Source: Gekko japonicus (Eukaryota). From it: a DNA stretch of 64,000 nt. The notes beneath the pieces are model-generated. The model searched no databases. It saw nothing but the letters and a program-made list of their open reading frames with translations, and was not told the DNA's origin. Below are positions 6,220-50,980 of this stretch, one piece after another (within the stretch, counting starts at the first letter, position 1; each line of letters begins with the position of its first letter). The stretch lies in contig NW_015162030.1 of assembly GCF_001447785.1 (NCBI RefSeq), forward strand, positions 127,895 through 191,894, in the 5' to 3' direction. The translations under genes and the position numbers were made by a program.

Positions 6220-6302
6220 CCCTGGGCTATAGGGTTTTCAAGGCAAGAGGTGGCTCTGCATTGTGACCCTGGACTTCATTGGGGGTCTCCCATGCAAGTA
6301 CT

Positions 6303-9563: not shown

Positions 9564-10443
9564 ACCAGCCTACGCAGCAGACGGGTGCCAGGATGAGCAG
9601 GGAAGTCCTCCTGGCGTGCTGGTTCTCCTCAGCCCCAGGAGCCCACAAAAGCTACCGCGGGAAGTCTTTAAGGAAGGGCCGCGGTGGCTCGGAGGTTAAA
9701 GACGCTGAGCTGCAGACCGGAAGGTTGTTCGTTCGGCAGTTCGAGACCCGAGTGTGCCGCATGATGGAGTGAGCTCCCGTCTCTGGTCCCTGCTCCTGCC
9801 AACCTAGCAGTTTGAAAGCAAGAAATTGTGAGTAGATAAATAGGTACCGCTTTGGTGGGAAGGAAACAGAGTACACATGACCACGTAAAAAGGTCTTCAG
9901 ACAGTGCTGGCTCTTTGGCTTGGAAATGGAGATGAGTCTTGGAGCTCCTTAAAGGTAAAGGTTCCCTTGCTCGAAAGCCAGTTGAATCCGACTCTAGGGG
10001 CCGTGCTCATCTCCATTTCCAAGCCAAAGAGCCAGCACTGTCTGAAGACCTTTTTACGTGGTCATGTGTACTCTGTTTCCTTCCCACCAAAGCGGTACCT
10101 ATTTATCTACTCACAATTTCTTGCTTTCAAACTGCTAGGTTGGCAGGAGCAGGGACCAGAGACGGGAGCTCACTCCATCATGCGGCACACTCGGGTCTCG
10201 AACTGCCGAACGAACAACCTTCCGGTCTGCAGCTCAGCGTCTTTAACCTCCGAGCCACCGCGGCCCTTCCTTAAAGACTTCCCGCAGTAGCTTTTGTGGG
10301 CTCCTGGGGCTGAGGAGAACCAGCACGCCAGGAGGACTTCCCTGCTCATCCTGGCACCCGTCTGCTGCGTAGGCTGGTCCTAGAGTCTTATTCAACTGGC
10401 TTTCGAGCAAGGGAACCTTTACCTTTAAGGAGCTCCAAGACTC
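9564..10443. repeat. Inverted duplication of a Sauria SINE plus flank (373-bp arms)
   Basis: 9564-9936 is the reverse complement of 10006-10378; 9934-9998 is the reverse complement of 10379-10443. Confidence 0.9.
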
Positions 10444-25469: not shown

Positions 25470-26050
25470 ATAAGAACATAAGAGAAGCCGGTGTTAGATC
25501 AGATCATTGGCCCATCTAGTCCAACACTCTGTGTCACACAGTGGCCCAAAATACCAGGGGCCATCAGGAGGTCTAGCAGTGGGGCCAGGACTCCCGAAGC
25601 CCTCCCACTGTTGCCACCCCCCCAGGCACCAAGAATACAGAGCATCCCTTGCCCCAGACTGAGAGTTCCTATAAGAACATAAGAGAAGCCAGTGTTGGAT
25701 CAGGCCAATGGCCCATCCAGACCAGCACTCTGTGTCACACAGTGGCCAAAAATACCAGTTGCCCATCAGGAGGTCCACCAGTGGTGCCAGGACACCAGAA
25801 GCCCTCCCACTGTTGCCCCCCTCCCCAAGCCACTAGTGGACTTCTGCTCCATATGCTTATCTAATTCATAAGAACAGAAGAGAAGCCAATGTTGGATCAG
25901 GCCAATGGCCCATCCAGTCCAGCACTCTGTGTCATACGGTGGCCAAAAATACCAGGTGCCCATCAGGAGGTCCACCAGTGGGGCCAGAACTCCAGAAGCC
26001 CTCCCACTGTTACTCCCCCAAGCATGAAGAATATAGAGCCTCCCTTGCCC
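25470..26050 (-). repeat. Three head-to-tail CR1 3'-end units in the last FAM166B intron
   Basis: TAAGAACATAAGAGAAGCC restarts at ~25470, 25672 and 25869. Confidence 0.82.
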
Positions 26051-28706: not shown

Positions 28707-28887
28707 TCAATAGTCCTCGTCTTCCATGTGCGTGACGTACATGATGGGCACCAGCCCGCTCTCTGCTCCTCGGCGGCACCGCAGCCAGTCGGCGTCCACC
28801 TTGCCCAACACGCGCAGGACGTCTCCCTTCTTGAAGCTCAGCTGCCCGGCCTCCGTGGCGATGTGGTGGCAAAGGGCCTTCACCTCG
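28707..28887 (-). CDS. RUSC2: RUSC2 last coding exon, SH3 domain and stop
   Basis: [63 protein letters not shown]; SH3 signature; CCCAG| acceptor. Confidence 0.96.
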
Positions 28888-29049
28888 CTGGGGAAGAAGA
28901 GCAGAGAGCCATGAGGGCCCCGTCAGGCAGAGGAGGCGGGCGCCCTGGCGAGGTATGGGGGAGCCACGCCCAGCCAAGGAGCTTGGTGGCAAACCCTGGC
29001 AGGCCTGCTGAAGGCGTTCGCTCGCTCCCTGACCTCACGGCCACTACTG

Positions 29050-30471
29050 GGACGCCCCTCAGATAGAGTCTCGGTGCAGCCGTTCTGGTGGCCGCAACTC
29101 AAAAGGGACACTGCAGGACAGCTGGGGAAAGGGCAGCAGAGGGCCACCAAGAGGCTTAAGCAGCGGGAGCCCCTTTCCTACGAGAAAAGGCTGAAGAGCC
29201 TTGGATGGCCCCGTCGTTTCCAGTTCAGAAAAGAGATGACCCGGGGGGGGGGGGGAGACGACGACGACAGGATGGAGGTTTATAAAATCATGCACGGGGG
29301 GGGGGGGGGTGTGTGTGGAGAGCTGACAAGGAGGACTTTCCCCTCCCTCTCCCCAAAGCCTAGAACTCGAGGGCATCCAGCGAAGTTGACGGGCAGTAGG
29401 TTCAGGACAGACAACAGGAAACATGACTTTACACAGAGCGTGACTGAGATGTGGAATTGGCTGCCAGAGGAGACAGTGATGGCCACCGGCACAGATGGCT
29501 TGAAAAGGGCTCGACAGATTCAAAGAGCAGAGAGCAATTGGGGGGGGGGACTTCAGAAGGGCCCTGCTGCTCGAGAGTAGTCTGCCCCCCATCAACTGCC
29601 ACTAGCCACGGTGTCTAAAGGGAGCCTCCACGTCCAGGGGCAGCAAGACTCTGAATCCCAGAGCTGGGAAGCAGCGTCAAGGGAAGGCCTCGGCTTATAC
29701 TGCCTGCCTGTTGGCCCTCCAGAGGAACTGGCCGGCCCCTCTTGTGAGTCAGGATATGCTGGACTAGATAGACTACTGCTCTGATACAGCAGGGCTCTTC
29801 TGGTGTCCTTCTCAGAGGGGAAGGCCTCAGCCTCTATGCCCTGCTGTTGGCCCTCCAGAGGGACTGGCTGGCCCCTGTGTGAGAGACAGGAGGCTGGACT
29901 AGATGGATCCTCACTGGTCTGACCCAGCAGGGCTCTCCTGAGGTTCTTATCAGGGATGAGGCCTCGGCCTCTCTGCCCTGTTGCTGGCCCTCCAGAGGAA
30001 CTGGCTGGCCCGTGTGAGAAGGGATGCTGGACTGGATGGACCCTCCCTGGTCTGACCCAGCAGGGCTCTTCTCAGGGGGAGGCCTCGGCCTCTCTGCCTT
30101 GTTGTTGGCCCTTCAGAGGAAATGGTTGGCCCCTGTGTGAGACGGGATGCTGGACTAGGTGGACCTCAGTGGTCTGATCCAGCAGGGCTCTTCTGGTGTT
30201 CCTTCTCAGAGGGGAAGGTCTCGGCCTCTCTGCCCTGTTGCTGGCCCTCCGGAGGAACTGGCTGGCCCCTGTGTGAGACGGGAGGCTGGACTAGAGGGAC
30301 CCTCCCTGATCTGGCCCAGCAGGGCTCTTCTGGTGTCCGTATCAGGCGAAGACCTCGGCCTCTCTGCCCTGTTGCTGGCCCTCCAGAGGGACTGGTTGGG
30401 CCCTGTGTGAGACAGGATATGCTGGACTGGATGGACCCTCCCTGGTCTGACCCAGCAAGGCTCTTCTGATG
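29050..30471 (+). mobile_element. CR1 3' fragment followed by six tandem ~135-bp 3'UTR units
   Basis: ORF 29074-29580 is CR1-like (QRATK...SYEKRLKSLG...VYKIM...RTRGH...WNWLP); repeat units start at 29684, 29821, 29958, 30079, 30215 and 30349. Confidence 0.85.
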
Positions 30472-30762
30472 TCCCCCCAGCCCTCCTCCCTTCCACTCCC
30501 AGGGCTCTGGACCCAGAGAAGTCCATGCCGAGCTCCCATCCCTCCCCAGGCCTTCCCTCCGGGCCACATGGCTGGACCTCGGAGCCACGCTGCTCCCTGC
30601 TGGGCATTCCACCTGTGGCTGACCCCTCCGACGAGGGTGTGCAGCGTCTGACGGCAAGCCCGGCTGAGATGCCAAGCGGCTGGCAACGGAGCCCAGGGGG
30701 CACTGTTTCCCCCGCACACACACACACACACACACGCTTGCCCCTGCCCTGACTCCACTCAC

Positions 30763-30945
30763 CAGGGTGTCTCCGGGGGCAGGTTCCTCTCCGGGGGCGG
30801 CTGCTGCTGCTTGGGGCAAGAAGAGGTGGAGTCTGCCGGGCCCCGTTCAGGCTCCGAGGCGGCCTCCTTCCACACGCCGGCCCCCACGGTCTGGGCCATC
30901 AGCTGGAACACGGAGCGGTCCAGGCTCAGCCAGCCAGATGGCATC
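30763..30945 (-). CDS. RUSC2: RUSC2 coding exon 10
   Basis: RMPSGWLSLDRSVFQLMAQTVG...PETP; CCCAG| acceptor, TG|GTGAGT donor; 183 nt, phase 2-2. Confidence 0.93.
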
Positions 30946-31392
30946 CTGGGAAGAAGGCTGCCGGTCAAGCAAGAGGTTTACCTCAGCGGCGTCCCTCAGA
31001 CCATCACGAGAGTCTCCCTGCCCAGAACCCCCCTCTAATGATTCCATGTTTGGGGGGGGGTGTCTGCAGGGCGATAGGGGGAGATGAGTGTGCTGTGGGA
31101 GGAGAGATGTTCGGAGAGGAGTCTGTGTGTGTGTTTTATGACAGAGAGTTCTGTGTGTGTGTCTTTGGAAAGTGAAGTGTGGAAGAGCTATGAAGAGAGT
31201 CGGTGTGACTCTAAACATATGGCAAAGAAACAAGTAGTGTCTAAACTGTGTGGTTAGACAAATGGTTTATCGTGTGTGCCCAAGACAAAGAGCTTAGCCA
31301 GTGTGGCTACCTATATGAGAGAGAGAAGCCCGTCAGCGTGGAATTCTGGTGTCTGAGAGACGGTGTGCGACACCTGGCCAGTTATATTTACA

Positions 31393-31820
31393 CAGGGGTC
31401 GTTTCATAGAAAAAGAGCTAGGGGAACTCATTAGCATAACTCATTAGCATATGCCATACCCCCTGACATCACCGGAAGTATGTCATGAGGCCACACCCCC
31501 TGAATGCGCTCGCCCGCTTCAGGAGAGGGGATCAAAGTGTAATACAAGCCTCCTCCGAGACTTGATCACACCAATCTCAACTCTCTCTTGGGTCTTGATG
31601 GCTGCCAGTCATTCCCCCTGCCTGGGGGAAGCCGCGTTGGACCAAAATACAGTCCAAACTGCTGTAAGGAACACCCGTCCACCCTGAGCACTTACAGGGT
31701 GCGTCAAATCGCCATTTTACCCCGACCGGAAGCAGGGGGCGGGGCTTCGTCGTGTGCCCCGCCCCCCGCACCTCACCCGGGGGAACGGCGATCCTCGCGA
31801 TCCCCCCGAAATGACCCCTG
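31393..31820. mobile_element. hAT non-autonomous element
   Basis: CAGGGGTC...GACCCCTG TIRs, perfect 8-bp TSD TATTTACA. Confidence 0.85.
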
Positions 31821-32162
31821 TATTTACAAGTTCCTTTCCCCAGAAACAGTTCAAGATAGCCAGAAACCTATTTTGTTCTTTATTCAATAAATTGATTTTT
31901 GTTTAAATGTATCCCAAAGATCAGTACAGTCCTTCCTCAGGGCCACATAGTCCTCTGAAGTGCCCAGACCCTGGGTCATACTACCAGCAGAGACAGATTG
32001 TGGAATTCTTAATTCCTGGTGGCAGCAGAAAACTACCACGTTTACATACACAGAGGGTGGTTTAAAGGGAAAACAGGGGCCCCCCACAAGCAAGCAGGCC
32101 ACACCCTCCCTTCCAGAGCAGGGCCGCCTTTGAGCCCCCTCCCCTCCCCTCCCCCTCCTCAC

Positions 32163-33126
32163 CTGCCGGTCTGCTTGGGCTCCTTGGTGGCCTTCCGGGA
32201 GCCGAAGAGGTGCCCCCACTTGGGCTGGCTGCTCTCGGGGCTGCAGGCGCTGCTCTGCTCCGGGACCCCGTGGCTCGGGGCTGGCCCGCGCTCCTTCTCC
32301 CTGGTGCCCTTCAGCTCTGTGAGCTCCGAGTCTGGCGGGCTGCCCATCCAGAAGGGGCGGCTCTTCTCCTTCACCTCTTCCTTGACCGAGGGCTCCGGCT
32401 TCTGGGCGGGCTCCGGGGCGGCCTTGGCGCGGGGCACCTCGTGGACGGGTCCCTCCTCTGTGATGGGGCAGGCCTCGGCCCCTTCCACCACCCCTTCCCT
32501 CGGGGGCGGCCCCTTCCTGGCCTCGGCCTGCTGCTTGAGTGCCGCCACCCCCGTGCCCACCTTCTTCTTCCGCTCGGAGCGGATGAAGCGAGCACCTTCT
32601 GCCGCCGACCCTTCGATGTAGACCTGGGAGCTCTGCATGAGCTGGTACCACCAGCTGGCCTGCTTGCCCTTCCTCAGCTCCGCGGCGGCGGCTGCGGCGG
32701 CCTCCGGGCCCTCTCTGCACTCCACCACCGCCTCCTCTTCCTCCTCCTTCCTGCCACCTCCGCTGGGGGCCCCCACACCCTTGGCTCGGCCCTCCTCCTC
32801 CTCCGCCTCCACGCGGTGCCGCCCCGGGTCCTCCTCGGCCCCCCAGCTCCGGTCGCTGCTACTGCTGCCGCTGCCGCCCCGGGTCCTCATCAGCTGGAGG
32901 GTGGAGTGGGCGGAGAGGACCAGGCCCTGCTGGGTGCGGAGGAGCTCCTTCTGCTGCCGCTGCTCCTTGCCCATCTGCAGGAGGCGGTGCTCGAAGAGGA
33001 GGTCCAGGCTGAAGGGCAGCAGGGAGAGCGGCTGGAGCAGCAGCAGCACCTCCTCAAAGAGGCCCTGGCACACGCCGTGCGCCAGCGACAGGAAGCCCAC
33101 CGGCTGGTAGTGCGCCTGGACGATGT
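32163..33126 (-). CDS. RUSC2: RUSC2 coding exon 9 (end of RUN domain and linker)
   Basis: [17 protein letters not shown]...[29 protein letters not shown]...[15 protein letters not shown]...[10 protein letters not shown]...[10 protein letters not shown]; CGCAG| acceptor, AG|GTGAGG donor; phase 1-2. Confidence 0.96.
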
Positions 33127-33794
33127 CTGCGGGGAGGACGGCACCCGCGTCAGCCCCTCTGCTCCCAGACTCCCCCCACCACCACCACCACCACAGAGGC
33201 ATCAAGAAACACCCCCACCCCTCACACACACACACACGCACGGCTGCCCCTCCCTGACCGCCACTTCCGTTCTCTGCTCTGCGGAACTCTGGACAAGCCC
33301 CGAATCGCTCCTCACTCCTTGTGCCCCTGCGGGCCCAGAGCAGGGCGGGCGGGGTCCAAGTCTAACCAGACTTCCAGGGCAGAAGCCCTCTTCTCGGGGC
33401 ATGGCCTGGAGGACCCCTTGTGGGTCAGAGAGCCAGTCTGGTGTCGTGGTTAAGTATGCGGACTCTAATCTGGGAGAACCGGGTTTGAGTCCCCACGCCT
33501 CCACCTGCACCTGCTGAGGTGACCTTGGGTCAGTCACAAGCTCTGGCACAGCTGTCCTTGAAAAAGAGCAGTTCCTGTCAAGAGTTCTCTCAGCCCCGCC
33601 CACCTCATAGGGTGTGTCTGTTGTGGGGAGGGGAAGGGGAAGGAGTTTGTAAGCCGCTCTGAGACTACAAGTGAAGGGCGGGGCATAAATCCAATCTCTT
33701 CTCTTCTTCTTCTTGTTGTTGGACTGGGAAATGGCTCCTCATTTCTAGACACACCCAGGGCCAGACTGCACGACTGGGGGCCTGGAGACCAAGC

Positions 33795-34195
33795 TCTATA
33801 AGGCTGAGGGACTTGGGAAGGTTCGGTCTGGAGAAGAGGAGGCTGAGGGGGGACAGGATGGCTCTCTTGAAGGATTTGAAGGGCTCTGTCACTTAAGAGG
33901 AGGGTAGGGAGCTGTTCCTGTTGGCAGCAGAGGAGAGGGCTCGCAAGACTGGGTTTAAATTCAGGGCGGGAAGGTACCGGATGGGTTATCAGGAAGAACT
34001 TTTTCTACAGTCAGAGTTGAGCAATGGTGGAATCAGCTGCCTCGGGAGGTGGGGGGCTCCCCCCCCCCCCCATTGGCCGTCTTGAAGCAGCGGCTGGACC
34101 AACACTGGTCAGGGATGCTCTAGGCCGAGGCTGCATTGAGCAGGGGGGGGGGGGGGGCGCTAGGTGGCCTGTGGTTCTATGATTCTATTCTATGC
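33795..34195 (+). mobile_element. CR1 LINE 3' fragment
   Basis: CTGGAGAAGAGGAGGCTGAGGGGGGACAGG...TGGAATCAGCTGCC...TTCTATGATTCTA tail. Confidence 0.85.
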
Positions 34196-36156
34196 ACGTT
34201 AGGATTCCTGAGGGGAGGCGTGTGGGTTCCCCAGCCAGTCACACACCACCCTGGGAGAAAACAACGTTCCCAGTAGGGTGACTTGCATGACGGAGTGATT
34301 CAAAATCAGGTTGGGGGGACCACCCTGTGGCCCACTGGGAATCATAACGCTCGGCCCTTACAGGAGAGGCTGCAACTGCAACGTTCCCTCTAAGCAGTGG
34401 AGTCTTGTGAGCAAAAATTATACGTTGTGAGCTACTGGCATTAAAATTGTGAGCGAGCGATTGCGCTGCAGCATCAGTTCTTTTGATCTGGAGCCCTCCT
34501 TCCTGAGCGAAGACAAAAATCTGTGAGCCGGAGGCTAAACAACTGTGAGCTGGCTCACGCTAACTCAGCTTAGAGGGAACCCTGGCTGCAAGGAATCCAA
34601 CTTTCTTCTCTGCTGCCGACAGGCTTCTTAGGGGCCGCCACAGAGAGGCCACGTCCCGACCCCCCGGGATGTAAGGGTCAGCTGCCCGAGGGCTCCTTCT
34701 CTCCCCAACACTGCCCCAACCACCAACTCCTGGTGCCCATTCCAACCGGGCAGGAGGCCCTGGAGTGCCAGCCCCACCTTGGGGTATAGAAAAAGAAAAG
34801 TAGGTTTTTATACCCCACTTTTCTCTGCCCTAAAACGGCTTACAATTGCCTTCCCTTCCTCTCCCCGCAACACACAGTTCTGAGAGAACTGTGACTGGCC
34901 CAAGGGTCGCCCAGCGGGCCTCATGGGATCAGAGTCCACGGCTCTTCACCACCACACCAGGCTGGCAAGGGACTGAGGACAAGCCACAAACTTTGGGGGG
35001 GGNNNNNNNNNNNNNNNNNNNNNCCCACCCCAGCCTCCCCCAACTCCTGCCACGCTTCAGCACTTTAGTTTGGGCACAGCTGCCGTGCACAAGGCACCAG
35101 CTGCCGTCTCGGGGGTGGGAAATACCTGGGAATTTTGCAGGTGGCCCCTGAGGAGGGCGGGGCTTGGCGAGGGGAGGGGACTTCAGTGGGGTACAATGCC
35201 ACGGAGTCTGCCTTCCAAAGCCACCCCGCTTTCTCCAGGCGAACTGACTTCTGTCACCTGGAGATCAATTCTAATTCTAGATCTCATGCAGCTTTGAGAA
35301 TGACAGGAGTCCTCCGTCCATGAATGTCAGCAGCACAGTGTGTCTTTTGTAGGACCGGCAAAAAAAGCATCCTTACAACTATTAAAAGGCTGTCCCCCTT
35401 TTTGGAAGACTTCATGCAAGGAGAAGCGGGTTCATAATTCTAGACACTCCCGTGGGGGCTTGACTTTTAAAGCACTGATGCAAAATGGTCTGGTAGTTAT
35501 CAGTCTGTATGTACTGAATGTTACTGCTTATTGAATGTAATGAATATTTATACCTGACCAGGATGAAATAATGACACACTATGCACTTTACTAAATGATG
35601 ACCCTAAACAGAACACATTAGTTTGTTAAAAGGTTTTTGCAGTGCATATTTATTTGTTACTAGGCTACCTGGAGATTGGCAACACCTGTCTCTGAAACGG
35701 TTGGCCACTCCACCTCCCAACAAAGGCAGTGGGCAGCTAACTGAGCTCTGGAGAGCCAGTCTGGTGTCGTGGTTAAGTGCGCGGACTCTAATCTGGGAGA
35801 ACCGGGTTTGATTCCCCACTCCTCCTCCACTTGCACCTGGCTGGGTGACCTTGGGCAAGCCGTAGTTTTGATAAGAGCTGGTCTTGAAAAAGAGCAGTTT
35901 CTGTCAAGAGCTCTCTCAGCCCCACCCGCCTCACAGGGGGTGTCTGTTGTGGGGAGGGGAAGGGAAAGGCGTTTGTGAGCCGCTCTGAGACTCCTTCAGG
36001 TAGTGAAGAGCGGGGTATAAATCTAATCTCTTCTTCTTCTTCTTCTGCATGTGTGTGTGTGTGTGTCTTCTGAGTCTTCCTGCTTCCAAACCTTGTCATA
36101 GCTGCAGACACATACCAACCCCGCCCCCCAATCCCCGCAGGGCCCGTCACTCTTAC

Positions 36157-36203
36157 CTTCGTGGTTGTACAGGTGGTTAAACCAGAACTCCAATGACCGG
36201 ATG
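36157..36203 (-). CDS. RUSC2: RUSC2 coding exon 8 (RUN domain)
   Basis: (N)IRSLEFWFNHLYNHE; CAACAG| acceptor, G|GTAAGA donor; 47 nt, phase 2-1. Confidence 0.94.
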
Positions 36204-36974
36204 CTGTTGCAAGAGAAAGCGGGAGAAGGCGGTGAAGCAGGGCGCTGAGTGCCAACCAAGCAGCCCACCTGCGCCCCCTTCCTCCTGCCCTCCCCCCAAG
36301 GAGACACAGCCCTCCTTTCCTCAGTTTTATCACCACAACAGCCCTGCGAGGCGGTCAGGCAGAGGGCAAGAGAGAGACTGGCTGGCCCAGGGCCACCAAG
36401 GTGGACTTGGGCCTGGAACCCGCGCCTCCCAGATTCTCACCTGACCAACGCCACCCACGCTCTCAGTGCTGAAGCAAATGCAGCCAGGAGAAACGGGTCT
36501 GAAACATGGCCCCCTCCCTCCCCCCCCGGCCTGCTGGGGCACCCCGCCTTCCACGCTTCCCGGCACCTCCCAGACGCCCAGCTCGGGACAGGCTGGGGTT
36601 TCCCTGGGGTAAAGTGTTCCAACGAGGGATCCGTGTGTGTGCAGCTCCAAGGAACACCCCTCCACCCCCAAGGCCATCTCAGGTTGGAAAACGGGGGCAA
36701 GGGAGTTGTGTGGAGCCCCTTGTGCCTGCGCAGTGGTCCCAATCCAGATCAGACCCTTGAAGCACTCAGGGAGCCAGAGGTGTTTCAGCTGGAAAGGCTG
36801 TTGCCGGGCGGGGAGCCTCCAGTGCAGAGAAGGAAGGGCCTGTTGATCTCTCTCCCTCACGGGCCACGGGCAGGCGGGGGTGGCGGGGGCGGGGGGGCTC
36901 CACTACATCTCCCCCCCCTTCCTTTTCTAGTCAAGGACAGTAGCCTCAAGCAAGCTGGGGAGGGCATGACAATA

Positions 36975-37024
36975 GTACTGGCTGACCTTGCCGTACAGGC
37001 CGTGGAGGACTTTGGTGGAGGGGC
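36975..37024 (-). CDS. RUSC2: RUSC2 coding exon 7 (RUN domain), 5' half only; 3' half and normal donor missing
   Basis: CCGCAG| acceptor then GPSTKVLHGLYGKVSQY, after which similarity stops and the frame runs YCHALPSLLEATVLD-stop (36927). Confidence 0.85.
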
Positions 37025-37585
37025 CTGCGGAGGGGGGGGGAGGAGGAGGGTCAGGTGCAGAGCAGGCAAAGAACAGTCCACACACACACCCCCGCAATAA
37101 GGGACCAGATTCCCCCCAGCCCTCCCCCGCCCCCAAACTGCCATCCTTCGGCAGGAAAGATCCCTGGGAGGGCTGAGCCACACGCAGGTCCGGCTGGCGT
37201 CTGAGGCCTCTCGCGAGGGTCTGGCCACCCAGGGGGCAAGAAGAAGAGCCCGGGGGAATCAGATCCCGCCCCCCCCCCCCGTTCACTTGCACCATCGAGC
37301 CCACCTCCTGGTCCGAATCCATCCTCATGCTGCTCCCGCCCACGGACAAGGCAGAGATGACCCACCAGGACCACCCCGCAGTCTCGCCTGGCTGCGACTT
37401 CATTTTAGAAAACGAAGCTCTGCTACTCCCTTGAGACCAGCCGCATTGGCAAGCCAGGCAAGGCTCCTGATGTGCGCACGGGCCTGGATACGCCCACCCC
37501 AAAAGGGAGAGTCCAGTCTTTAAAACAGAGGACCCCCCCTCCCCTGCCCAGAGCGCCACTCAGGGCCACCCGCGCGGCTCCGTAC

Positions 37586-37760
37586 CCAGCTGAGTGGAGG
37601 CCTCCACCACGCTCCACGGGATGTTCCGCCTCTGGCCGACGATCACGTCCAGCACGTAGGCCTTGAGCCCGTCGCCCAGGACGTCGCGGATGGCCGGGCA
37701 CAGGTACTTCAGGATGAGGTGCCCCACGTTGGGGCTCACCGAGCTGTTCCCCAGCTTGGC
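37586..37760 (-). CDS. RUSC2: RUSC2 coding exon 6 (RUN domain)
   Basis: [58 protein letters not shown]; TTCCAG| acceptor, G|GTACGG donor; phase 0-1. Confidence 0.95.
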
Positions 37761-39565
37761 CTGGAAAGGGGGCGGGGGTGGGGGAAGACCGCATCACAGC
37801 TGGCCGAGGCGTCCCGGGCTTGGGCTCTTGGCTGTGGTCAGGTGCAGCCCCCCCACCCGCCCAGCTGGCTGTGTCTCGGGGGAGGGGGCCACTGGGGAGC
37901 AGAGATTGCCAGGGCAGGCCCTCTTCCACTGCCTCCCCCATGTGCCTTCTCCCAAAATGCTTCCTGGGGAGAGGGGGGGCTGAGGCACAGCTGGGAGGCG
38001 CTACCCCCCATCCCACAGCATCGCAAATACTAAGAAGAAGAGATTGGATTCGTACCCCATGGCCCTTCACTACTCAAGGGAGTCTCAGAGCGGCTTACAC
38101 ACTCCTTTTCCCTTCCCCTCCCCACCACAGACACCCTGAGAGGTAGGTGGGGCTGAGAGAGCTCTGACACAAACAGCTCTTTTTTCAAGGACAGCTCTTG
38201 TCAGAACTACGGCTTGCCCAAGGTCATCCAGCCAGGTGCAAGTGGAGGAGGAGTGGGGCATCAAACCCGGTTCTCCCAGATGAGAGTCCGCGCACTTCAC
38301 CACTACAACAAACTTAACCACTACACCAAACGAAACTGAGAGCAGGCAGGAAGTGACGTCACTGAGACTGGCAGCAGGGGGTGGGACCTGGCTCCCAGTC
38401 TGTAGGGCATGGGGGCTGAAGGGGGCGGCACGAGGGGTGGCACCAACCAGAGAAGCACGGCGCAGGTGGGGGGGGGCACACACTTCCTGGCATGTGAGAG
38501 GCCCCTCCCCAGGGACTGACCCCTCCTCCAGTACTTTCACTTTGCTGGCTCACAAGCAACAGCCCTGCGAAGGAGGCCGCTCTTGTTTACCTTTCACAGG
38601 CAGCCCAAGACCAAACAGGTGGCCCGTGCCGGGGGGGGGAGGGGCTCGAACCTGCCTCTCAGCCCAGGGCGAACTGCAGGGCCCAGGGCCAAAGAGACAC
38701 TCGGCGCTGCCAGGCATCCGGGGGTGCTATAAATAAACAGGAGGGAAGGCCGGACTGGGGCTGCCGGCCAGACGGAACCACAGGGCTGCATCCTCGTGCC
38801 TGAGCCTTTCCAGGAATTGGGAACACACTGCCCCCCCCCTCGCCCACACAGCCAAGGACATTCCCTGCTGGCTGATGGAGGGGGGGGGGCGAGGGAAGGT
38901 AACCGTGGCCGGCATTCTGCGGCACTCCCTCCTGCCCTCCCCTGCCTCAGCCGATGGCCTGGGGCTCAAAAGGCCCCCTCCCGAAGGGCGAGGAAAGGGC
39001 TGCTGCTGCTGCTCTGGGGAGGTGGCCACCCTACCTCTGCCTCCCCCCACCCCCAGCCCAGGCAAGCAGCCAAGCCTCACCAAGGCCTGANNNNNNNNNN
39101 NNNNNNNNNNNNNNNNNNNNNNNNNNNNNNNNNNNNNNNNNNNNNNNNNNNNNNNNNNNNNNNNNNNNNNNNNNNNNNNNNNNNNNNNNNNNNNNNNNNN
39201 NNNNNNNNNNNNNNNNNNNNNNNNNNNNNNNNNNNNNNNNNNNNNNNNNNNNNNNNNNNNNNNNNNNNNNNNNNNNNNNNNNNNNNNNNNNNNNNNNNNN
39301 NNNNNNNNNNNNNNNNNNNNNNNNNNNNNNNNNNNNNNNNNNNNNNNNNNNNNNNNNNNNNNNNNNNNNNNNNNNNNNNNNNNNNNNNNNNNNNNNNNNN
39401 NNNNNNNNNNNNNNNNNNNNNNNNNNNNNNNNNNNNNNNNNNNNNNNNNNNNNNNNNNNNNNNNNNNNNNNNNNNNNNNNNNNNNNNNCGGGGGGGTTTT
39501 CTCTAGCACAACACCTGGGAGGGGCCACCACCCACCCATGTCTTCCCCACCCCCTCCCCACTCAC

Positions 39566-39642
39566 CTTCACCCCAGGGTCTCTGCTGGTCCCGAAATGGG
39601 CCACGATCAGGTCCACGGCTGTGTTGATCGCCTTGACCAGCC
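39566..39642 (-). CDS. RUSC2: RUSC2 coding exon 5 (start of RUN region)
   Basis: [26 protein letters not shown]; TTGCAG| acceptor, AAG|GTGAGT donor; phase 1-0. Confidence 0.95.
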
Positions 39643-40594
39643 CTGCAAGACAGGCGCCAGAGCAGAGCTGAAGGCGGCCCCGCCCCCCTCCCCAAGAGGC
39701 GGCGACGGGGGGGGGGCTGTCCTCCCACCCTGCCCCATAGGCAGCCGATGGCAGCCTGCCTGTCCTCAAAGGCACCCAGAGCCAGTCCCCGCTGCGGGTC
39801 CCTTCTGGGCACCTCTAGGAATCGCCAGGAACTCTGCAGTCAGGACTTCCGGTAAGCAGACAAGGCCTCCTCCTTCTTCTTAATTCTTCTTCTCCCCAGG
39901 ATGAGTGCCCCCCCCACCCATTCGGCCCCCGTTCCCCCCCATCAATCCGGAGGGCACCAGCAGGCAAGGCTCCCCTGCCCTAAGTGGGCCAATGGGACCC
40001 CCCCCTCGCAGCCCCGCCCTCAAACACAACCCTTGCTCCCCCCCCCACACACACACACCCGTGCTGCCCTCCTCCTCCTCCTCCCCGTCAACTGGGCCAC
40101 AGCTTGGCGGGCAGGGGGCACAGACCTCCACAGTGCCAGGAGGAAAGGTCTCAGGCGAGCAAGCCAGGAGCAACTGTTCCCGGAGATGCCCCAGTGGAAA
40201 GCCCCCCAACAACCCCCCCCCCCAGAGCCTTGAAGGAAGAGCAGCAGAGCGGCAGAGCGGGGGCCACCCGGGGTCTCCGCCTGCTTTGCAGGGCTCTCGA
40301 TGGGACGCTGACCCAGTCAGCGCCTCCGAGCCCCCACCCCACCCCGGCCCGCTGCCGACCCCACTGCTTGCTCTGCGGCTGCTCCCTCTAAGCTGTGGAG
40401 TCTTGTGAGCAAAAATCCTACTATGTGAGCGACTGGCATCACAATTGTGAGAGAGCGATTTGGCTCCTGCATCAATTAGTTTGCTCTGGAGCCGTCCTTC
40501 CCGCGCTAAGACAGAAATATGTGAGCCGGAGGCTAAAAAACTGTGAGCTAGCTCATACTGACTCAGCTTAGAGGGAGCACTGGGGAGAACTCAC

Positions 40595-40738
40595 CCTTCT
40601 TCTGCAGCAGGTCGATGGAGACGGACTCCGTGTTTCCATCCGGCGACAGGCAGAATTCCGCGGGGGGCTTTTCCGCCAGGGAGAAATAGTCCGGGAAGAA
40701 GTCGGAGTAGTTGAGCGGTGGGAGCTTCATGGACTGTC
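40595..40738 (-). CDS. RUSC2: RUSC2 coding exon 4
   Basis: [48 protein letters not shown] (my translation; not in the ORF track); CTGCAG| acceptor, G|GTGAGT donor; 144 nt. Confidence 0.94.
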
Positions 40739-42193
40739 CTGCAGGAGTCAGAGAGAGAAGGGGGGTGGCGTTGGGGTTGGCAGAACTGGCTCCCGAGGGG
40801 TGACACGTGCTTCAGCTTCGGGGCCAGATGGGGCTCCGCTGCACCCCTCCGCTTGGCCCTCCGTCCCAAGTGGGGAGAGACTCTAGCCACCCTGCCACGC
40901 TCAAGAGAGCGCGCCCGGCCTTCCTTAGCCAAGGGCTCCTTCCTACATCCCCACCCCCACCCCCAGGCAAAGTCCACGTGAGGCGGTTTTATCTCCAGCA
41001 GGCACAACCCGGGCACAAGAGGCACGGATGCCTCCTCCCACGAGCACACCCCGGTGGTGGCCGGACTTTGCCTCCAGAGGGAAAAGCCCCACTCAAGATG
41101 CGGGGGGGGGGAGGAAGAGGAGGGCCATTCAAGGTGGTGGTGGTGGTGGGGAGAAAACAGGGACAGGATTCAGCTGCGCAGAAGGACCTTGGACAGAAGG
41201 GGAAGGAGAGAGACCCCTCCCAGGAGGAAAGGACCGGGGGGGGGGCGCAGAGGCTCTGGAAGAAGATTCCCAAGACCCGTTCAGTTCAGCGGCAGAGCGG
41301 GCAGTCCCCGGGGGCACCATCTCAACCCAAGGGGCACCGTCCGGAGGACAGTGAGCCCCCCCCCCCCGGTCCATGGAAATCAGTGCCCAGACGGAGCCCC
41401 AACAGGGCAAAGAGACCGGGATGCTGGACTAGGCTCTGGGAGACCCAGGTTCGAATCCCACCCTGCCACGGGGGACCTTGGCCCAGCCCCTCCCTCTCAG
41501 GAGAAAGCGCCAGGCTTCTTGGGAGATAAACGTGAGACAAACATGTACCAGCGAGAACCAACTAAAGCCTGCAGTGGAAGCCGCCTTCAGCACCGACTAC
41601 TGTGGGACTTGCCAGAGGAGGGAGCTGTCTGCACGACCACAGGGGCCTGGGGCCATCAGCCCCTCCCACCACCAACAGTGTTCCCTCTAAACTGCGTTAG
41701 TGTGAGTTCACTCCGTTTTTTAGCCTCCGGCTCACCCATTTTTGTCTCCGCTCAGGAAGGAGGGGGCTCCAGAGAGCAAACTCATTGATACAGGAGCCAA
41801 ACGGCTCACTCACAGCCTTAATGCCAGGAGCTCACAAAGTGGAGTTTTTGCTCACAGGACCCTCCACGGCTTAGAGGGAGCTCTGCCCACCCCCACCAGG
41901 TTTGTCAGGCTGCTCTTCCCATCTCCCTCCCCAGCCCACAGCACCCCAAGCCACCGGCTTCAGCGGGACCTTGTTGCGGCCGACTCCCCTTGGACGGCAC
42001 CGCAGAGAGAGGAGACGCGACCGCTGAGCCGGGAACGAACGGGAGCCTCCCTTCCCTTCTGTCCTCCGACAAGGGGGCTCCCCACTCCAAGCGGAGTCAC
42101 CCCCTCCCCGGGAGAGGACCAAAGGGAGGGGGGCAGAGGCCGCGCCCCATGGGCTGGGCCCCCCAGAGAGTCCTGCCTACGGCTGGGGCGCAC

Positions 42194-42394
42194 CATTGAG
42201 CCGGCAGGTGTTGCGTCCCGCATTCAGGGCACCTGGGAACTCAAAGATGGGGTTCCTCCAGGGCAGCCGGCCCTCCTGCCGCCTCCAGTCCAGGCTGCCC
42301 GTCAGCCCTGCCAGCCCCGAGACGCCGTCCAGCCCCAGGGGGTTCCTTCGCCGATACTCCCGCCACTTGAGTGCTTGCGGAGAGAGGTGGTGGG
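42194..42394 (-). CDS. RUSC2: RUSC2 coding exon 3
   Basis: [21 protein letters not shown]...RNPIFEFPG...CRLNG; TAG| acceptor, G|GTGCGC donor; 201 nt, phase 1-1. Confidence 0.93.
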
Positions 42395-44163
42395 CTACGC
42401 GGCCCCCGAGGCAAGCGAGCCACAGGACAGGAGACAGAGAGAGAGAGAGGGCAGGAGGGAGGGAGAGAGAAAGAGAGAGGAGGGAGGGAGGAAGAAAAAC
42501 CAAGAGAGGAGACAGGCAAGAACCAAGACAACAATGTTAGTAGCAATCCCGCAAGCATTAGCTGGACATTGGCATGGGGGGGGGGGAAGGGGAGAATTCT
42601 AAAAATGTGGAAGAAACAATGCTGGCAGGCAGCCCTACAGGGCAGGCAGGCAGGCAGGGTGCAACTGCAGGGTTCCCTCTAAGGTGAGTGAGTGTGAGCG
42701 AGCTCACAGTTTTTTAGCCTCCGGCTCATACATTTTCATCTTAGCTCAGGAAGGAGGGCTCCAGAGCAAACTGATTTATGCAGGAGCCAAATCGCTCGCT
42801 CACAACTTTAATGCCAGGAGCTCACAAAGTAGAATGTTTGCTCCGGGGCCTTCCCCAAACTGCAGCCAAAGAGACCTGGGAAGAGCTCCCACCTGCAACG
42901 TTTGCAGGGCCAGAGGAGGCTCTGCAAGAGAGACATGCCACCCCCACCCCCACCCCCGCTCCAGTTGCCTTCGTGGGGCTCCTGCGCTTCTTTAGGGACA
43001 GACCACCCGAGAGCTGGGAGGGTGGTCCGTGCATACACCTGAGAACCAGAGGTTGGCTGCGAGGGGACCCCTTTCCAGGGGCCGGTGGCGTCCTCCCTCC
43101 CCGGCACACTCCCTGGGAGGGGGACTGAGAGCACTGGCACCTGCTGTGGGGCTGGGGGCTGCCTGAGGTGGGTGGGGGGCTCGGTCTAGTCGCACAGAAA
43201 GGTCACCGGCTATGATGTGGGACAAAGTCTGAAGGCCTCTGAAGCAGGGTGCCGGCACACGAAAGCTTCCACCCAGAATTAAACTGTGTTGGTCTTAAAG
43301 GTGCCACTGGACTTGCTCTAATGAAACCCAAGTCTCTGTTCAGGCTGCATTTGCTTTCCTGAAGTGTTCTGATTCAGCACTTTCTCTTTGCCTATTCCCT
43401 TTGATTTTTTTTAATTGATAAAAGTGTCTTTCAGATCAACAACAGATGTCCTGGAAGATTGAAATGTTCTCCCGCTCGTTTCTGAGTGTTGCGATTTCTA
43501 ATGTCAGGTTTGCGTTCAGTGGTTCCTGCAGGCAGGGAGTGACTCATTTGTCCCACGGAGAGACAGGAGAAAGGGCCAGATGACACGCGACGGCACGCAT
43601 GACCCTGGACCATGGGTGAGAGGAGGATCCCAAGGTGGTCTCATCAAGGGCTCTGCCTTCCCCCACCCCCCCCATCAAGTCACAACCGACTCATTCCGGC
43701 TGGTGAGGTTTTCGAGGGAAGAGACAGACAGACGGGGTGGTTTGCCCTTCCCTGCCTCTGCGAAGCGATCCCTGGTGGCCTCCGGGAGCTTTCGGGATCT
43801 GACGACGGGGTTCTCTCTCGTTTCTTCTTGGGGGTTCTTGTAGCTAGATGCCAAACGTGGGCATCCAGCTGAAAGACCCCCTCCAGAAGGACCAAGAGAG
43901 AACCCCCAACTTCAAATGGCTTCTCACCTCCGACAATGGGCCACCCGGCAAAGAGCCAAGCCCAGGAACCAAAACTTGCAACGGGACCAGAGACCGACTT
44001 TGTCCCTGCATATACTCAGGCAATACTGTCACCATGGATTCATTTTGCTTTTGGAACAGCCGTGGCCAATCCTGGCGCTTCTCCCCAAAACCTTCCAACT
44101 CCCCCTCCCCCCCATGGGGTGCCTGCCAAGTCCTTGGAAGTTCTGTGACAGGAGACCACCTAC

Positions 44164-44925
44164 CGTTCAGGGGGCGGGGCCCCATGGCGCCCAGGGACCC
44201 AGCGCTGACGGGATCACTGCAGCCAGCCTTCCACGGGGGGTTGGCGGGCCCCCCTGCCCCGGACAAGCTCAGCCCCTCGGTCGCCAAAGGAGGGAGGGAG
44301 CTGCCGTGGAGCTGGTACTCGTCCGGCGGCCCGCTCTGCTCTGGCAGCACCCTGGGGGCCAGCTGGGGGCTCTCCTTCTTGTGCACGGGGTTGGCACGGG
44401 TGCCGGCGTGGGGGGCCGGGGAAGGCCCGGTGGGCAGGAGGTTGGCAGAGACGGGGCAGGACCGGCTCCGGGGAGGGTGACTCTCAGGCGTCGCAGAGCA
44501 GGAGGAGGAGGAGGAAGAGTCCACGTTCTGGAAGAAAGGCACATTGCTTCGCACGGGGGAGTAGCTGCCCAGCGGGGACGGGCGAGTGGTCTCCGGGACG
44601 GGCTTCCTGGCGCAGCCGTCAGCGAGGGAGGCGGCCCCGTCCGCCGAGCGCTGACCCGGCCCCAGGGTCCCCACCCCCATGGGCTGGTCGGCGGAGGTGG
44701 CGGAGGCCGAGGACTGGGAGGTGGAGGAGAGCTGCTGGCCGGCCGAGCGGCCAGCGGCCGAGAGGCTGTAGAGCTGGGAGAGGCTGGAGGCGAGGTGGCT
44801 GTGCAGGGCCCGCCCCTTGGGCTGTCTGGGGAAGTGGTGCTGGAACACAAAGGGCTGGATGGGCAGCGTGGTCGGCCGCTGGTCCTTGCTGTAGCGCACC
44901 ACCGCCTTGCTCTCCGCCGTCCCGC
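44164..44925 (-). CDS. RUSC2: RUSC2 coding exon 2
   Basis: Acceptor TACAG|, GGTAESKAVVRYSKDQRPTTLPIQPFVFQHHFP...RPSPLGSYSP...GPRPLN, donor G|GTAGGT; 762 nt, phase 1-1. Confidence 0.95.
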
Positions 44926-45216
44926 CTGTAGGGGGAGACAGAGAGGAAGAGTGAGGGGAGGGGAGGGGAGGGCAACGGGCCAGGAACGCGGGCGGGGGGA
45001 GGCCCGCTCTGCCAGCCAGTGCTCCAAGCGGCACCCACCAAGGGGGGGGGGAGCAGGCTGGGAAACCGTGGCTCTCCCTCCCTCCCCACCACAGAACCCC
45101 ACCCACTGAGCTGGAGGGATACAGCCTATTAGATGCTTGGAGAACACGCAATATAAATAAAAGAGATTTTACATTCTACTCAAATAGACACGACTGTTGG
45201 TCACGTATAGGCATGG

Positions 45217-45563
45217 TAGGTTTCAAAATATTCCTAAGCACGAACGGAGATGTGACTCTATCTTGATTCAATTGGTCACATACTGTTAGACTGTTCGTTG
45301 CATGCATCTGCTAGGGAAAAATGGTTAAATACTTGGTTGCAGGGTAAACATCACCTTCCTAATAAAATAAAATGTCAAATTCTATTGAATGATACAACAG
45401 TAGAGATTACTGTGGCAGTGGCCAATTTTTTAGTTGATGTGATAAGAGTGAAAAACGTGGGAAACTCAATTTTATGTTTTTTTAATTATCTCAGACTTTT
45501 AGCTGATTGTGTTATTTACTGTCTCTGATTTTAATGTTGTATATACCATTAAAGGTCTATTGA
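45217..45563 (+). mobile_element. 5'-truncated LINE 3' end (RTE-X-like) inserted in the L1 endonuclease region
   Basis: GRFQNIPKHERRC...SIGHILLDC Cys/His motif (frameshifted); flanked by TATAGGCATGG / TATAGACATGG. Confidence 0.5.
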
Positions 45564-45806
45564 TATAGACATGGCGTGGGTGAACTTAACAATGTTGAGC
45601 GAACTACTAGAGGCAGAGATCCTACCTAAGACATTCGCAGATCATAATCCAATATTATTTTCCTTCAAAGAAATTAGGAAAAGAAATAGATGGATCCTAA
45701 CTAATAACCTACTCAGAGATAATAAATTTGTGGAAAAAACAAAAATAGAAATTCAAGATTTTATAAAAAGAAATATCCAGCCAGAGATGCCAATATACAC
45801 AGTTTG

Positions 45807-46133
45807 TAGGCTTGCCAAGTCCCCCCGGGGGGCGGGGAAACCCCCGCTCCAGAGGCCCGTTCCCCGCTGCCGGCGGATCAGGCCCCGGGGGAACCCCACC
45901 CCGACGTGCACGTCACCTGGAAGTGACACGACCATGCCGGGCACACTGGGGGCGGGGCCACAATCATCCGAGGGAAAACCCTATGGTTTTCCCTCAGATG
46001 GTCATGGCCCCGGCCCCTAGCGTGCCCGGTGTCGCCATGTCACTTCCGGGTGATGTGCATGTGGCATGCGCGCGCACTCCAGCCGCCAGCCGTGAATCCC
46101 CCGCTACGGCTCAAAAACCACTTGGCAACCCTA
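45807..46133. mobile_element. hAT MITE inserted in L1
   Basis: TAGGCTTGCCAAGT / ACTTGGCAACCCTA TIRs, perfect 8-bp TSD ACAGTTTG; removing it restores PIYTVWDAFKAY. Confidence 0.9.
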
Positions 46134-49100
46134 ACAGTTTGGGATGCATTTAAAGCATATATGAGAGGCTGGTTTATTAATCAGGATGTGTGGAAGAGAA
46201 AAGAAAGGAAAATATCTTATGAGCTATTAAGTAAGCAAATTAAAAAGCAAGAAGATAAATTGAAAAGAGGTATGAATAGAGAAGATATTCAAACTAAATT
46301 AAAATTATTAGTGCATAAAATGAATCTAATATTAACTCAAGAAATTGTAAAATATATGGAATATGCCAAACTTTACCACTTCGAAAATGCGAATAAATCC
46401 TCGAGATGGTTGTCATATCGGCTTAGAAAGGAAAGAGAAAAACGATCCATAATTCTACTTAAAGATGAAAAGGATGAAGAAAAATACAAATTACAAATTA
46501 CAGGATACGAAAAAAATTGTAGAATTTTTTTTTTAAATCTACATCAACAAAAGAATGAAGAAAATATTCAAATGAAAGAATACTAGGAAAAAATAATAAG
46601 CAAAAATTTAACGAGGATGAAAAATGTATTCTAAATGATCCAATTACTACGTGTGAAATAATAGAAGCAATTAAGAAGCAGAAGAACAAGAAATCACCAG
46701 GCCATGATCGTATACCAACAGAATTTTTAAAGACTTTTGAAGATCAGTTAATACTCCCAACTAAAGGATGTGATACAGAATATAGGGGAGTTAGGGAAGT
46801 TACCAGCATCATGGAATCAGGCAATAATAACATTAATACCTAAACCAAACTCAGAGAAAAATCAAGTAAAAAATTATAGACCCATATCGCTATTGAATGT
46901 AACAATAACCAAGTCCCTGGTGCCAATGTCACCTGCCACGCACTCACTCCCCCTGATGGTGACGGAAAAGCCACGCTCTGCCAGACCACCTCACGGGGTC
47001 CTCGTGAGGACTGTGCCGAGAGAGCCCATGCAAAGTGCACCCAAACCCCCCAAAAGCACTCTCTAAGGCTAGGCCGTGTTCTCATGGCTACTGCCGCTAG
47101 TGAGCGGGCTGGCCTGGACAAACGGGGGGGGGGGGGGGAGGCGCCGTCTGCAGGATGGGTGCCAGCCACAGAGAAAGGGGAGGGGCCCACATAAGCCCCC
47201 CTGCTGGGCTGCATACTGCAAATTCACTGGGAGCAAAATCAAGTGGGCGCAGCAGAGATGCCAAAAGAGGCACCAGATACACTAAGTGAGGGGGGACAAG
47301 ACACAGGCTGGGAGGGTGTGTGTGTGTCTTGTCTCCCCCATCTCTGACTGCCCCCCCTCCTCTCCAAGCATCTCCCTACAGCTGCTGGGGCAACAGAGAC
47401 AGCACCACCCCGCACTGACCCCACGGGACCACTAAAGAACTCCCACATGCCTGGGCAAGGCACTGAATCCGCCCCCTTGGCTGGGGTGTGTGCGTTTTCA
47501 CCCTAAAGTGCAGCCGGCACACGGAGACACCCTGCTGCCGCCCAGAGGGCCCCCCTCCCCCCAGCACTTAACCTGCCGTATCCTGGGGCGCTGCGTGCAA
47601 TTAGAGGCCCGGTTGCTCCTGCCATCCGGCCGCAGCAGGGATACAAGGGCCACCAGCTGAAACGCGAGAGGGGGGCTGGGGGGGGGGGAGAGAGGATCAC
47701 ATGCCACAGCAGCCAGGACACAAAACAAACCTCTCCCCTTTCAGCTCCTCACCAGGATGGGCCGCGTGGGCAGTGCCCTCTGCAGGTCGGCCTGTTTGTT
47801 GGGGCTCCCAAAAGGCCCAACAAATCCTGCCCTCCTTGCAGGGAAGGGATGCCAGCCAGGCAGCCATCAAATGCCTACCGAGGAAGGCGCTTCCGGGGCC
47901 TCTCAGACGGCAGAGGAGAGGAGAGACGCTTCCACAGAGAGCACCGCAGAGAAATAGCCCTCCCGCCCACAAGCAGCAGGGGTGCCACCCAAGGCTATCG
48001 GGCCCATCAGGGAGGGACCCTGGCCCGGGGGCAGAGCCTCTGCTTGGTGTGCAGAAGGTGCCCCGGTTCAATCCCCGGCATCTCCGATGCAAAGGACCCA
48101 GGAGCGGGAGACGTAAGAAAGCTCCGCCCGAGATCCTGGAGAGCCACGGCCAGTCGGAGGAGAAAAGACCGACCTCAGCAGGCTGGCACAGAACGAGGCA
48201 GCCTGGCACGGCCAAGACTGAGCAGTGCCAAGGGCCCTTCACGACCCGGGCCCTGGAATGGCAAAGGAGGGAGTCTCCGGGCAGGGAGGGGGATGGCGGC
48301 GCCACCCAGATTCATACACCCCTTGGCACGGATCCCTGGGCAGCCTCCGGCACCCAGAATCGGGCCTGCCCCCCCCGAGTCCAGCACCCTGATCCCAACT
48401 CTGGCCCATCAGGCACCCCTGATCAGGTACACATCTGGGCTCTGATCCAAAAGGCACCAACGCTGCATTCGTCCAACGGGGCTAAGCACCTTCTTTCCCC
48501 AAATCACCTCTCCCAACTCAAGCAAAAAGCTTGGGAAACAAGCGATGGACGAGGGAAAGGGAGCCTGAGCCGAAAAAGCCCCGCCCCGCCCTGCCCTGGC
48601 CAAGCAAGTGGCTAGAAGAGCCAGTGGAGAGCCAGTTTGGAGTAGTGGTTAAGTGCGCGGACTCTAATCTGGGAGAACCGGGTTTGATTCCCCACTCCTC
48701 CACTTGCACCTGCTGATGTGATCTTGGGTCAGTCACAAGCTCTGGCACAGCTGTCCTTGAAAAAGAGCAGTTTGTGTCAGAGCTCTCTCAGCCCCACCCA
48801 CCTCACAGGGTGTCTGTTGTGGGGAGGGGAAGGGAGAGGAGTTTGTAAGCCGCACTGAGACTCCAAGTGAAGGGCNNNNNNNNNNNNNNNNNNNNNNNNN
48901 NNNNNNNNNNNNNNNNNNNNNNNNNNNNNNNNNNNNNNNNNNNNNNNNNNNNNNNNNNNNNNNNNNNNNNNNNNNNNNNNNNNNNNNNNNNNNNNNNNNN
49001 NNNNNNNNNNNATAGGGTCACCAGCTCTGGGCTGGGAAATACCTGGACATTTTGGGAGTGGATCCTGGGGAGGGTGGGGTTTTGGGAAGGGGAGCGACCT

Positions 49101-50980
49101 CAGCAGGGTATAATGCCATACAGTCCACCCTCCAAAGCAGCCATTTTCTCTAGGGAACTGATCTCTATTGTCCGCGGATCAATTGTAATAGCAGGAGATC
49201 TCCAGGTACCACCTGGAGGTTGCCCCCGGGGACCGGGGCCGGCGAGCCAACAAGTCCGGTCCAACCAGCACAGCCACCATCTCGTTCTCTGGGCCAGAAG
49301 CAAGGACGCTCCCAGCCACCACCAGTGTTTTGCTTCCCTGCACTTTGAGCAAAGAAGCTTCATCCAGTTTGGTGCAGTGGTTAAGTGTGTGCGGACTCTA
49401 ATCTGGGAGAACCGGGTTCGATTCCCCACTCCTCCTCCACGTGCACCTGGCTGGATGACCTTGGGCAAGCCATGGTTCTGACAAGAGCTGTCCTTGAAAA
49501 AGAGCAGCTTCTGTCAGAGCTCTCTCAGCCCCACCGACCTCACAGGGTGTCTGTTGTTGTGGGGAGGGGGAGGGAAAGGAGTTTGTAAGCCGCTCTGAGA
49601 CTCCCTTGGATAGGGAAGGGCAGGGCATAAATCCAGTCTCCTCCTCCATCTCCTTCATTTCGAGTAGGAAGAATCGGAGCGGCAAGCAACCTCATTAGAA
49701 GACAGCCTCTGCCGGGGCCGGGGACGCCACCAGAGCTCGCCCCACTCAGACAGTCCTTCCACCCCGAGGATTCCGACACCCCTAGCCCCAGAGGACCCCG
49801 CTCTCACCCTGCGGCTCCCAAGCCTCGGGGCATCTCTCCGCCTGGGATGCTGCCGCAGGAGGGCTCCGCTGGCACACAGGCCTGGCTCCACAGCTCTCCT
49901 CAAAGACCGGCCCCTGGGCATGGAAGCTCTCCTTCCTGAGGGGTGGCTGGACCAACCCACCCCAGAAGCCGCCTCCACAGCCCCTTCCCCCTCAGCACCA
50001 CCACCACCACCAGATACCCCAGGTGTCCCCACCCATGTTGAGCCCTGTGGGGGCCCACAGAATTCTGACACAGCACGGTGGGCGTAGCTGCAAAATGGCA
50101 GCCACAAAACCGCTGCTGTGGGAAGCCAGCCGGCCCAGAGAGGGCAGCTGCAGCCTGCCCTCAGTCATGCAGTGAAGATCCTTGAGCTCCGGGGGCAGCT
50201 GCTGACAAAGCCGTGCTCTTGAAAACCTGCACTGCCAATCAAATCTCCACTGGCCAACCAGAAGCCTCGTTGGGCAAACGCTCCACTCGTCCCTGCCCAT
50301 TTCCCAGGAACACTCGGCAGGCAACAGGAGGAGGGCCACAGCGCCCGATGGCACCACCCTGGGGACCCCCCCCCCACTGGCTCCGTAGCTAGACCCTTTT
50401 TCTTTGGGGGAGACACGTGCCCCAACGTGACTGCGTCACTTCCGGAAGTAACGTGCCGGAAGTGCCATAGGCATGTTGGGGGGGGGGGGTTGGACCGACC
50501 CTGACGGAAAGCAGGACACACGAAGCTGCCTTATGCCGAACAAGACCCTTGGCTTGGCCCATCATACAGTCAGGGAAGATTGGGGGGGCAGGGCAAATAA
50601 GGGAGGGGGCATCGCCCCAAAGGCCCCACGGTGGCTACAGCCAGACCTGTAATGCCACTGGGGATATAGCCCCCAGGGAACAGGCGGACACTTTCCCATT
50701 TACCATACGGTCGCCAATCAACGGTCTCTCTCTCTCTTTGCAATCCGGTAAGCAAACTTTGGCCTTCTGGCCCAATCCCCAAACTGGGTGCTTGCTTCTC
50801 TAGCGCCTGTCTGGACGAGCCCCTCCCCTGACAGTGCCCTCGGGAGAAGTATCCCTTAGCAAGCTCCTCTCCAGCAACCCCTATTTTGAACAATCCTAGC
50901 TGTCTCCCCTCTTTGGAGGGACCCCCCCCCTCAACTGACTATAAGAGACGGGCCCACGTATCCCCCCGGAGGGGCCTTAC

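What the first reader, a model, noticed from the sequence alone, without database searches (positions are those of the whole stretch)
36204..37024. RUSC2 RUN-domain exon breaks off mid-exon; its 3' half is missing with no gap marker
Seen: after a good acceptor the exon reads GPSTKVLHGLYGKVSQY, then switches at ~36974 to unrelated sequence (TAT TGTCATGCCC..., an LTR-like TG start) and reaches a stop at 36927. Recalled human RUSC2 continues PELTSHTMRFNAFILGLLN, which I could not find anywhere in the window. The other 10 exons are open and in phase. A weak donor CA|GTACTA at 36979 is in the required phase 2 and would give an in-frame loss of ~20 aa from the RUN core. The better-looking AAG|GTCAGC donor would frameshift and remove the rest of RUN and SH3. 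Inference: either a silent mis-join in the assembly (more likely, given other artefacts) or a real lesion or isoform in a conserved AP-4 vesicle/kinesin adaptor.
Basis: partly seen in the sequence, partly recalled or inferred. Interest (0 to 1): 0.7.

Follow-up and report, generated by a model that had tools for sequence, protein, structure and literature searches.

The report
Assembly slip in gecko RUSC2 exon
Half of one exon of the gecko RUSC2 gene is missing from this draft sequence, but DNA and RNA from public runs of matching animals carry the whole exon, so the break is likely an assembly error and the gene is ordinary.

Summary
RUSC2 coding exon 7 matches orthologs only from 37024 to 36975 (50 of 106 nt) and then runs to a stop at 36929-36927. 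The cause is very likely an assembly error. Six of 8 runs laid (5 studies) hold the missing exon half. A DNA contig has 115 letters where the window has 6 (36974-36969). Three transcript-like contigs join 36975 to the next exon with exactly 56 extra letters. Seventeen raw RNA reads continue past 36975 into the conserved RUN sequence. No listed joint or contig piece shows the window's junction or the cryptic donor at 36979. The DNA after the break is the gene's own intron, not an LTR. The lost piece was not found elsewhere in the assembly. The public predicted protein for this locus bridges the hole with an unsupported micro-exon, so its RUN domain is wrong. A private deletion allele in the assembled animal is not excluded (about 6%), because its reads could not be identified. 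Earlier scan notes suspected other assembly errors elsewhere in this genome, but none of the 8 shown concerns this locus. Verdict: not a real feature.

The parts
36975..37024 (-). Retained 5' part (50 nt) of RUSC2 coding exon 7 (RUN domain); true length 106 nt
   Evidence: tblastn of gecko orthologs; exon 6-to-7 splice in 16 raw reads of X21 and contig X3; 50+56 letters in contigs X3, X4, X15
36969..36974 (-). 6 foreign letters standing where 115 belong (by subtraction 56 exon + 59 intron, including the true donor); net loss 109 nt
   Evidence: DNA contig of X2: 'skips 6, 115 letters between' 36968 and 36975; arithmetic
36204..36968 (-). Remainder of native intron 7 (inferred true length 824 nt); holds the read-through stop 36929-36927 and a short repeat at about 36310-36400
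   Evidence: covered by contigs of X1 and X2; single-copy in G000 except the repeat
36470..36498 (-). 29-nt AG..GC 'micro-exon' that the public predicted protein P0001 uses, with a donor after 36939, to bridge the hole; no support as an exon
   Evidence: mapped; no joint uses it; zero depth at 36437-36502 in X15, X4, X23
36157..36203 (-). RUSC2 coding exon 8 (RUN domain), intact
37586..37760 (-). RUSC2 coding exon 6 (RUN domain start), intact
28707..52871 (-). Whole RUSC2 coding span, 11 exons; 1576 codons plus stop with exon 7 counted as 106 nt and the 53 N counted as letters
   Evidence: identity

Best explanation
The window lacks 115 bases of gecko RUSC2 (the last 56 of exon 7 and the first 59 of intron 7) and has 6 other letters in their place, likely because the assembler closed a small gap wrongly and left no N. 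The real gene has a normal 106-nt exon that is spliced to exons 6 and 8 (shown in RNA reads and contigs). It likely makes an ordinary RUSC2 adaptor with a full RUN domain. The exact mechanism is inferred, not shown: most likely a poorly covered GC-rich stretch (63-68% GC on the flanks, with C/G runs) joined by a gap-closing or de Bruijn step.
For:: X2's 1229-letter DNA contig runs from 36891 to 37265 with 0 other letters and 115 letters in place of 36969-36974. X1's contig stops fitting at 36968 with 15 letters left over. X3 joins 36975 to 36203 with 56 letters between. 11 raw reads of X21 run past 36975. X4 and X15 show the same 56-letter joint, and 6 raw reads of X23 run past 36975 with 30 consensus letters that I translated by hand as PELTSHTMRF; X23 has zero depth at 36932-36964. 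56 is exactly what phase and orthologs require. 118 of 120 listed homologs have the 36-residue segment, and 9 of the 19 missing positions are invariant in those 118. Short-read drafts often carry false exon loss in GC-rich genes (PMC9516821, passages).
Against: None of the runs can be shown to be the assembled animal. Only one DNA run (X2) bridges the site; X1 lacks 36985-37220 and X22 had 4 reads, none at the junction. Contigs drop rare alleles, and RNA could hide a stop-bearing allele through decay. Short foreign filler at a deletion is also typical of real repair. At 36856 the window differs from X1, X2 and X3, which fits either a weak consensus or a private haplotype. The 115 letters were not printed, so microhomology could not be checked. 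187 contig pieces and 10 loose ends were not shown.
Confidence: 0.93

Rival explanations
1. A real but rare deletion allele (115 out, 6 in) carried by the assembled animal, probably heterozygous, which removes the exon 7 donor and would give a null or RUN-defective RUSC2.
For: A deletion with short filler fits end-joining repair (general knowledge). There is no N at the site. The source animal's reads were not tested. A second private difference lies at 36856.
Against: The window form appears in no listed joint or piece of the 8 runs, and 6 hold the intact form. The segment is under strong constraint.
Confidence: 0.06
2. A fixed species-level loss or a regular isoform, using the phase-2 donor after 36979 (20 aa shorter) or the micro-exon at 36498-36470.
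For: The 36979 donor is in phase. The public model P0001 uses the micro-exon.
Against: No such joint in any of the 6 RNA or transcript-like lays' tables (X21, X3, X15, X4, X23) or the DNA ones; all show the full exon. The intact allele reads on as coding sequence through that site. P0001's RUN score falls to 45.8 bits against 73.2-77.1 in three other geckos.
Confidence: 0.007
3. An LTR or other mobile element inserted into the exon and displaced its 3' half.
For: A TG dinucleotide follows the break.
Against: The downstream DNA is single-copy and is native intron in X1 and X2. No displaced exon half exists in the window or genome search.
Confidence: 0.003

Closest known systems
False gene loss in draft vertebrate assemblies (Kim et al. 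2022, PMC9516821; passages read)
   Same: Coding sequence missing from a draft in a GC-rich gene, with the annotation inventing structure to compensate (their PCDH17 false introns; here a false micro-exon).
   Different: Here it is a half-exon plus donor replaced by 6 letters with no N. Their test used reads of the same individual or a long-read assembly, which I lacked.
RUSC2/iporin, AP-4 accessory protein (PMC8693955; search listing and passages)
   Same: Long N-terminal region, RUN domain, linker and SH3; 68-72% identity to five other gecko RUSC2 over exon 9.
   Different: Nothing real found. The paper places kinesin-1 (KLC2) binding in the linker between RUN and SH3, not in the RUN segment at issue.

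Membership tests
RUSC2 ortholog | Best hits are RUSC2/iporin | tested here: met
   P0001 100% identical; the next five hits are gecko RUSC2 at 68-72%
RUSC2 ortholog | RUN plus C-terminal SH3 domain | tested here: met
   PF02759 and SH3 in P0001 (RUN 45.8 bits, above the 22 cut-off)
RUSC2 ortholog | AP-4/ATG9A/kinesin-1 adaptor function | not testable with these tools
   Inferred from orthology (PMC8693955)
Assembly-caused false exon loss | Missing sequence present in DNA data of the species | tested here: met
   X2: 115 letters in place of 6
Assembly-caused false exon loss | Missing sequence present in transcripts | tested here: met
   X3, X4, X15 contigs (RNA status guessed or unrecorded); X21, X23 raw RNA reads
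Assembly-caused false exon loss | Assembled junction unsupported by reads of the same individual | not testable with these tools
   Source reads cannot be identified; X22 did not cover the junction
LTR element insertion | Multi-copy sequence after the break | tested here: not met
   single match apart from a short repeat about 570 nt away; native intron

The most novel reading that the evidence does not exclude
The assembled gecko carried a real, rare loss-of-function RUSC2 allele (115 bases swapped for 6, removing half a RUN exon and its donor) that was frozen into the reference and into the public protein record.
Probability: 0.06. Interest if true: 0.25.

Novelty: not a real feature. Interest (0 to 1): 0.06.

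Why it matters
It matters only for curation. The public predicted protein for this locus (P0001) has 22 wrong residues in place of 19 conserved ones in its RUN domain, which could be misread as lineage-specific divergence or gene decay. It also shows that this draft has losses of about 100 bases with no N, so other 'broken exon' calls in this genome need read checks.

Tried and rejected
LTR insertion: rejected. Missing half on another contig: a 52-aa ortholog stretch found 4 matches among 6 candidates in G000. Two are this locus's own flanking pieces, one is an intact 54%-identical paralog exon (L018; likely RUSC1, name recalled), and one is a weak match with a stop (L020). None holds the missing half, but only the best candidates are scored, so this negative is moderate. 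Inversion or local repeat as the source of the 6 letters: the hexamer occurs once and its reverse complement not at all in 36100-37600. Raw DNA run X22: 4 reads laid, none at the junction, uninformative. No listed holder was on record as RNA; raw RNA runs were added by species label. A paper search for 'Gekko japonicus' with 'RUSC2' found 0 papers (one search only). My first exon bounds for exons 1, 10 and 11 and for the AAG donor were off by a few bases and were corrected. No structure or complex prediction was run, since it would not bear on the question.

Full report
Identity. The minus strand carries an 11-exon RUSC2 from 52871 to 28707. Exon 9 is 100% identical to a predicted protein labelled iporin of Gekko japonicus (P0001) and 68-72% identical to five other gecko RUSC2 proteins; 120 of 754 hits were listed. 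Pfam finds RUN and SH3.

The observation. Exon 7 starts after AG at 37024 and matches orthologs to 36975, 50 nt. It then reads unrelated residues to a TAG at 36929-36927. The other ten exons have no internal stop, use AG/GT at all internal ends, and fall in phase if exon 7 is 106 nt; exon 1 holds 53 N. The donor after 36979 gives the needed phase 2 and the one after 36987 gives phase 0. Of 120 listed homologs, 118 have this segment at 36 residues, P0001 has 39 and one partial model lacks it. Nine of the 19 missing positions are invariant in the 118, most of which are birds and many of which are isoforms.

Not an insertion. A search of the own genome with 36230-36985 gave one full match, the locus itself, and 39 short matches, all centred on a repeat at about 36310-36400. 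36900-37120 matched only itself. A 52-residue ortholog stretch found the two flanking pieces, an intact paralog exon and a weak match with a stop, but not the missing half.

Reads and contigs. 24 runs were listed, all with one organism label, and 8 were laid. DNA-type run X2 has one 1229-letter contig matching 36891-36968 and 36975-37265 with no other letters and 115 letters between, in place of the window's 6. X1's contig fits 36891-36968 and leaves 15 letters over; X1 shows nothing over 36985-37220, where filtering may apply. Contigs of X3, X4 and X15 join 36975 to 36203 with 56 letters between. Raw RNA reads run past 36975 in 11 reads of X21 and 6 of X23. The 30 consensus letters of X23, translated by hand, give PELTSHTMRF, as in P0003. 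The exon 6-to-7 splice is seen in 16 reads of X21. X22, raw DNA, had 4 reads and none at the junction. So 6 of 8 runs, from 5 coded studies, hold the missing sequence, one is compatible and one is uninformative. No listed joint or piece shows the window's junction, the 36979 donor or the micro-exon; 187 pieces and 10 loose ends were not shown.

What it is. Shown: the window has 6 letters where another animal's DNA has 115, and transcripts carry the full exon. By subtraction, 56 nt of exon and 59 nt of intron are lost. Inferred: a wrongly closed small gap in a fragmented assembly (191,500 contigs) in sequence of 63-68% GC. This class of error is documented: 26-60% of genes in older assemblies had false losses, with missing exons among the commonest, and annotation invented introns to compensate (PMC9516821, passages; supplements not read).

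What stands against it. No run can be tied to the assembled animal, only X2 bridges the site in DNA, contigs drop rare alleles, and RNA may hide a stop-bearing allele. A short filler also fits real repair. The window differs from X1, X2 and X3 at 36856, which fits either reading. I leave about 6% for a private deletion allele.

Downstream damage. P0001 bridges the hole by reading to a donor after 36939 and through a 29-nt AG..GC micro-exon at 36498-36470. Three RNA or transcript-like runs have zero depth there, and its RUN score is 45.8 bits against 73.2-77.1 for three other geckos.

Known context. RUSC2 couples ATG9A vesicles to kinesin-1 through the linker between RUN and SH3 (PMC8693955, listing and passages). 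One search for the species with RUSC2 found no paper. Earlier scan notes on other pieces of this genome also suspected assembly errors; I did not test them and they did not change my reading.

Verdict. A real discrepancy in the sequence, very likely an assembly artefact (0.93) in an ordinary gene. Interest 0.06.

Noticed in passing
window 52329-52871 (-): The public model P0001 starts at the methionine at 52328 and omits about 180 N-terminal codons that the window encodes in frame and that other geckos have (75% identity to P0003 over 263 aligned positions). A 53-N run at 52551-52603 lies in this part, about 7 codons shorter than the ortholog; whether it is a gap or a mask cannot be told.
   Followed up: partly
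window 36856: The window has C where contigs of X1, X2 and X3 all have G at full depth: a second discrepancy about 110 nt from the break.
   Followed up: no
window 36320-37437, run X3: X3's intronic contigs differ from the window at about 3% of letters plus a 6-nt gap and a 28-letter stretch at 36813-36815, while its exon pieces are identical; it may be a divergent population or a related species under the same label.
   Followed up: no
L018:1504-1608 (G000:C1157:436222-436329, -): Intact paralogous RUN exon, 54% identical to P0003, with a donor at the same position; likely RUSC1 (name recalled).
   Followed up: partly
window 24532-25470 (+): Weak Pfam match to CMI2B-like (PF10629, 20.3 bits, under the 21.6 cut-off); likely an exon of CIMIP2B/FAM166B, which I recall as RUSC2's neighbour in mammals.
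   Followed up: partly
window about 6300-7250 (-): Translations at 7254-6907, 7094-6690 and 6660-6304 repeat the same SINE-like sequence nearly letter for letter, suggesting a tandem duplication or collapsed/duplicated assembly.
   Followed up: no
window about 9655-10290: The same 90-odd-residue translation appears on both strands (+ 9889-10287 and - 9948-9655), indicating a near-perfect inverted duplication; may be another assembly artefact.
   Followed up: no
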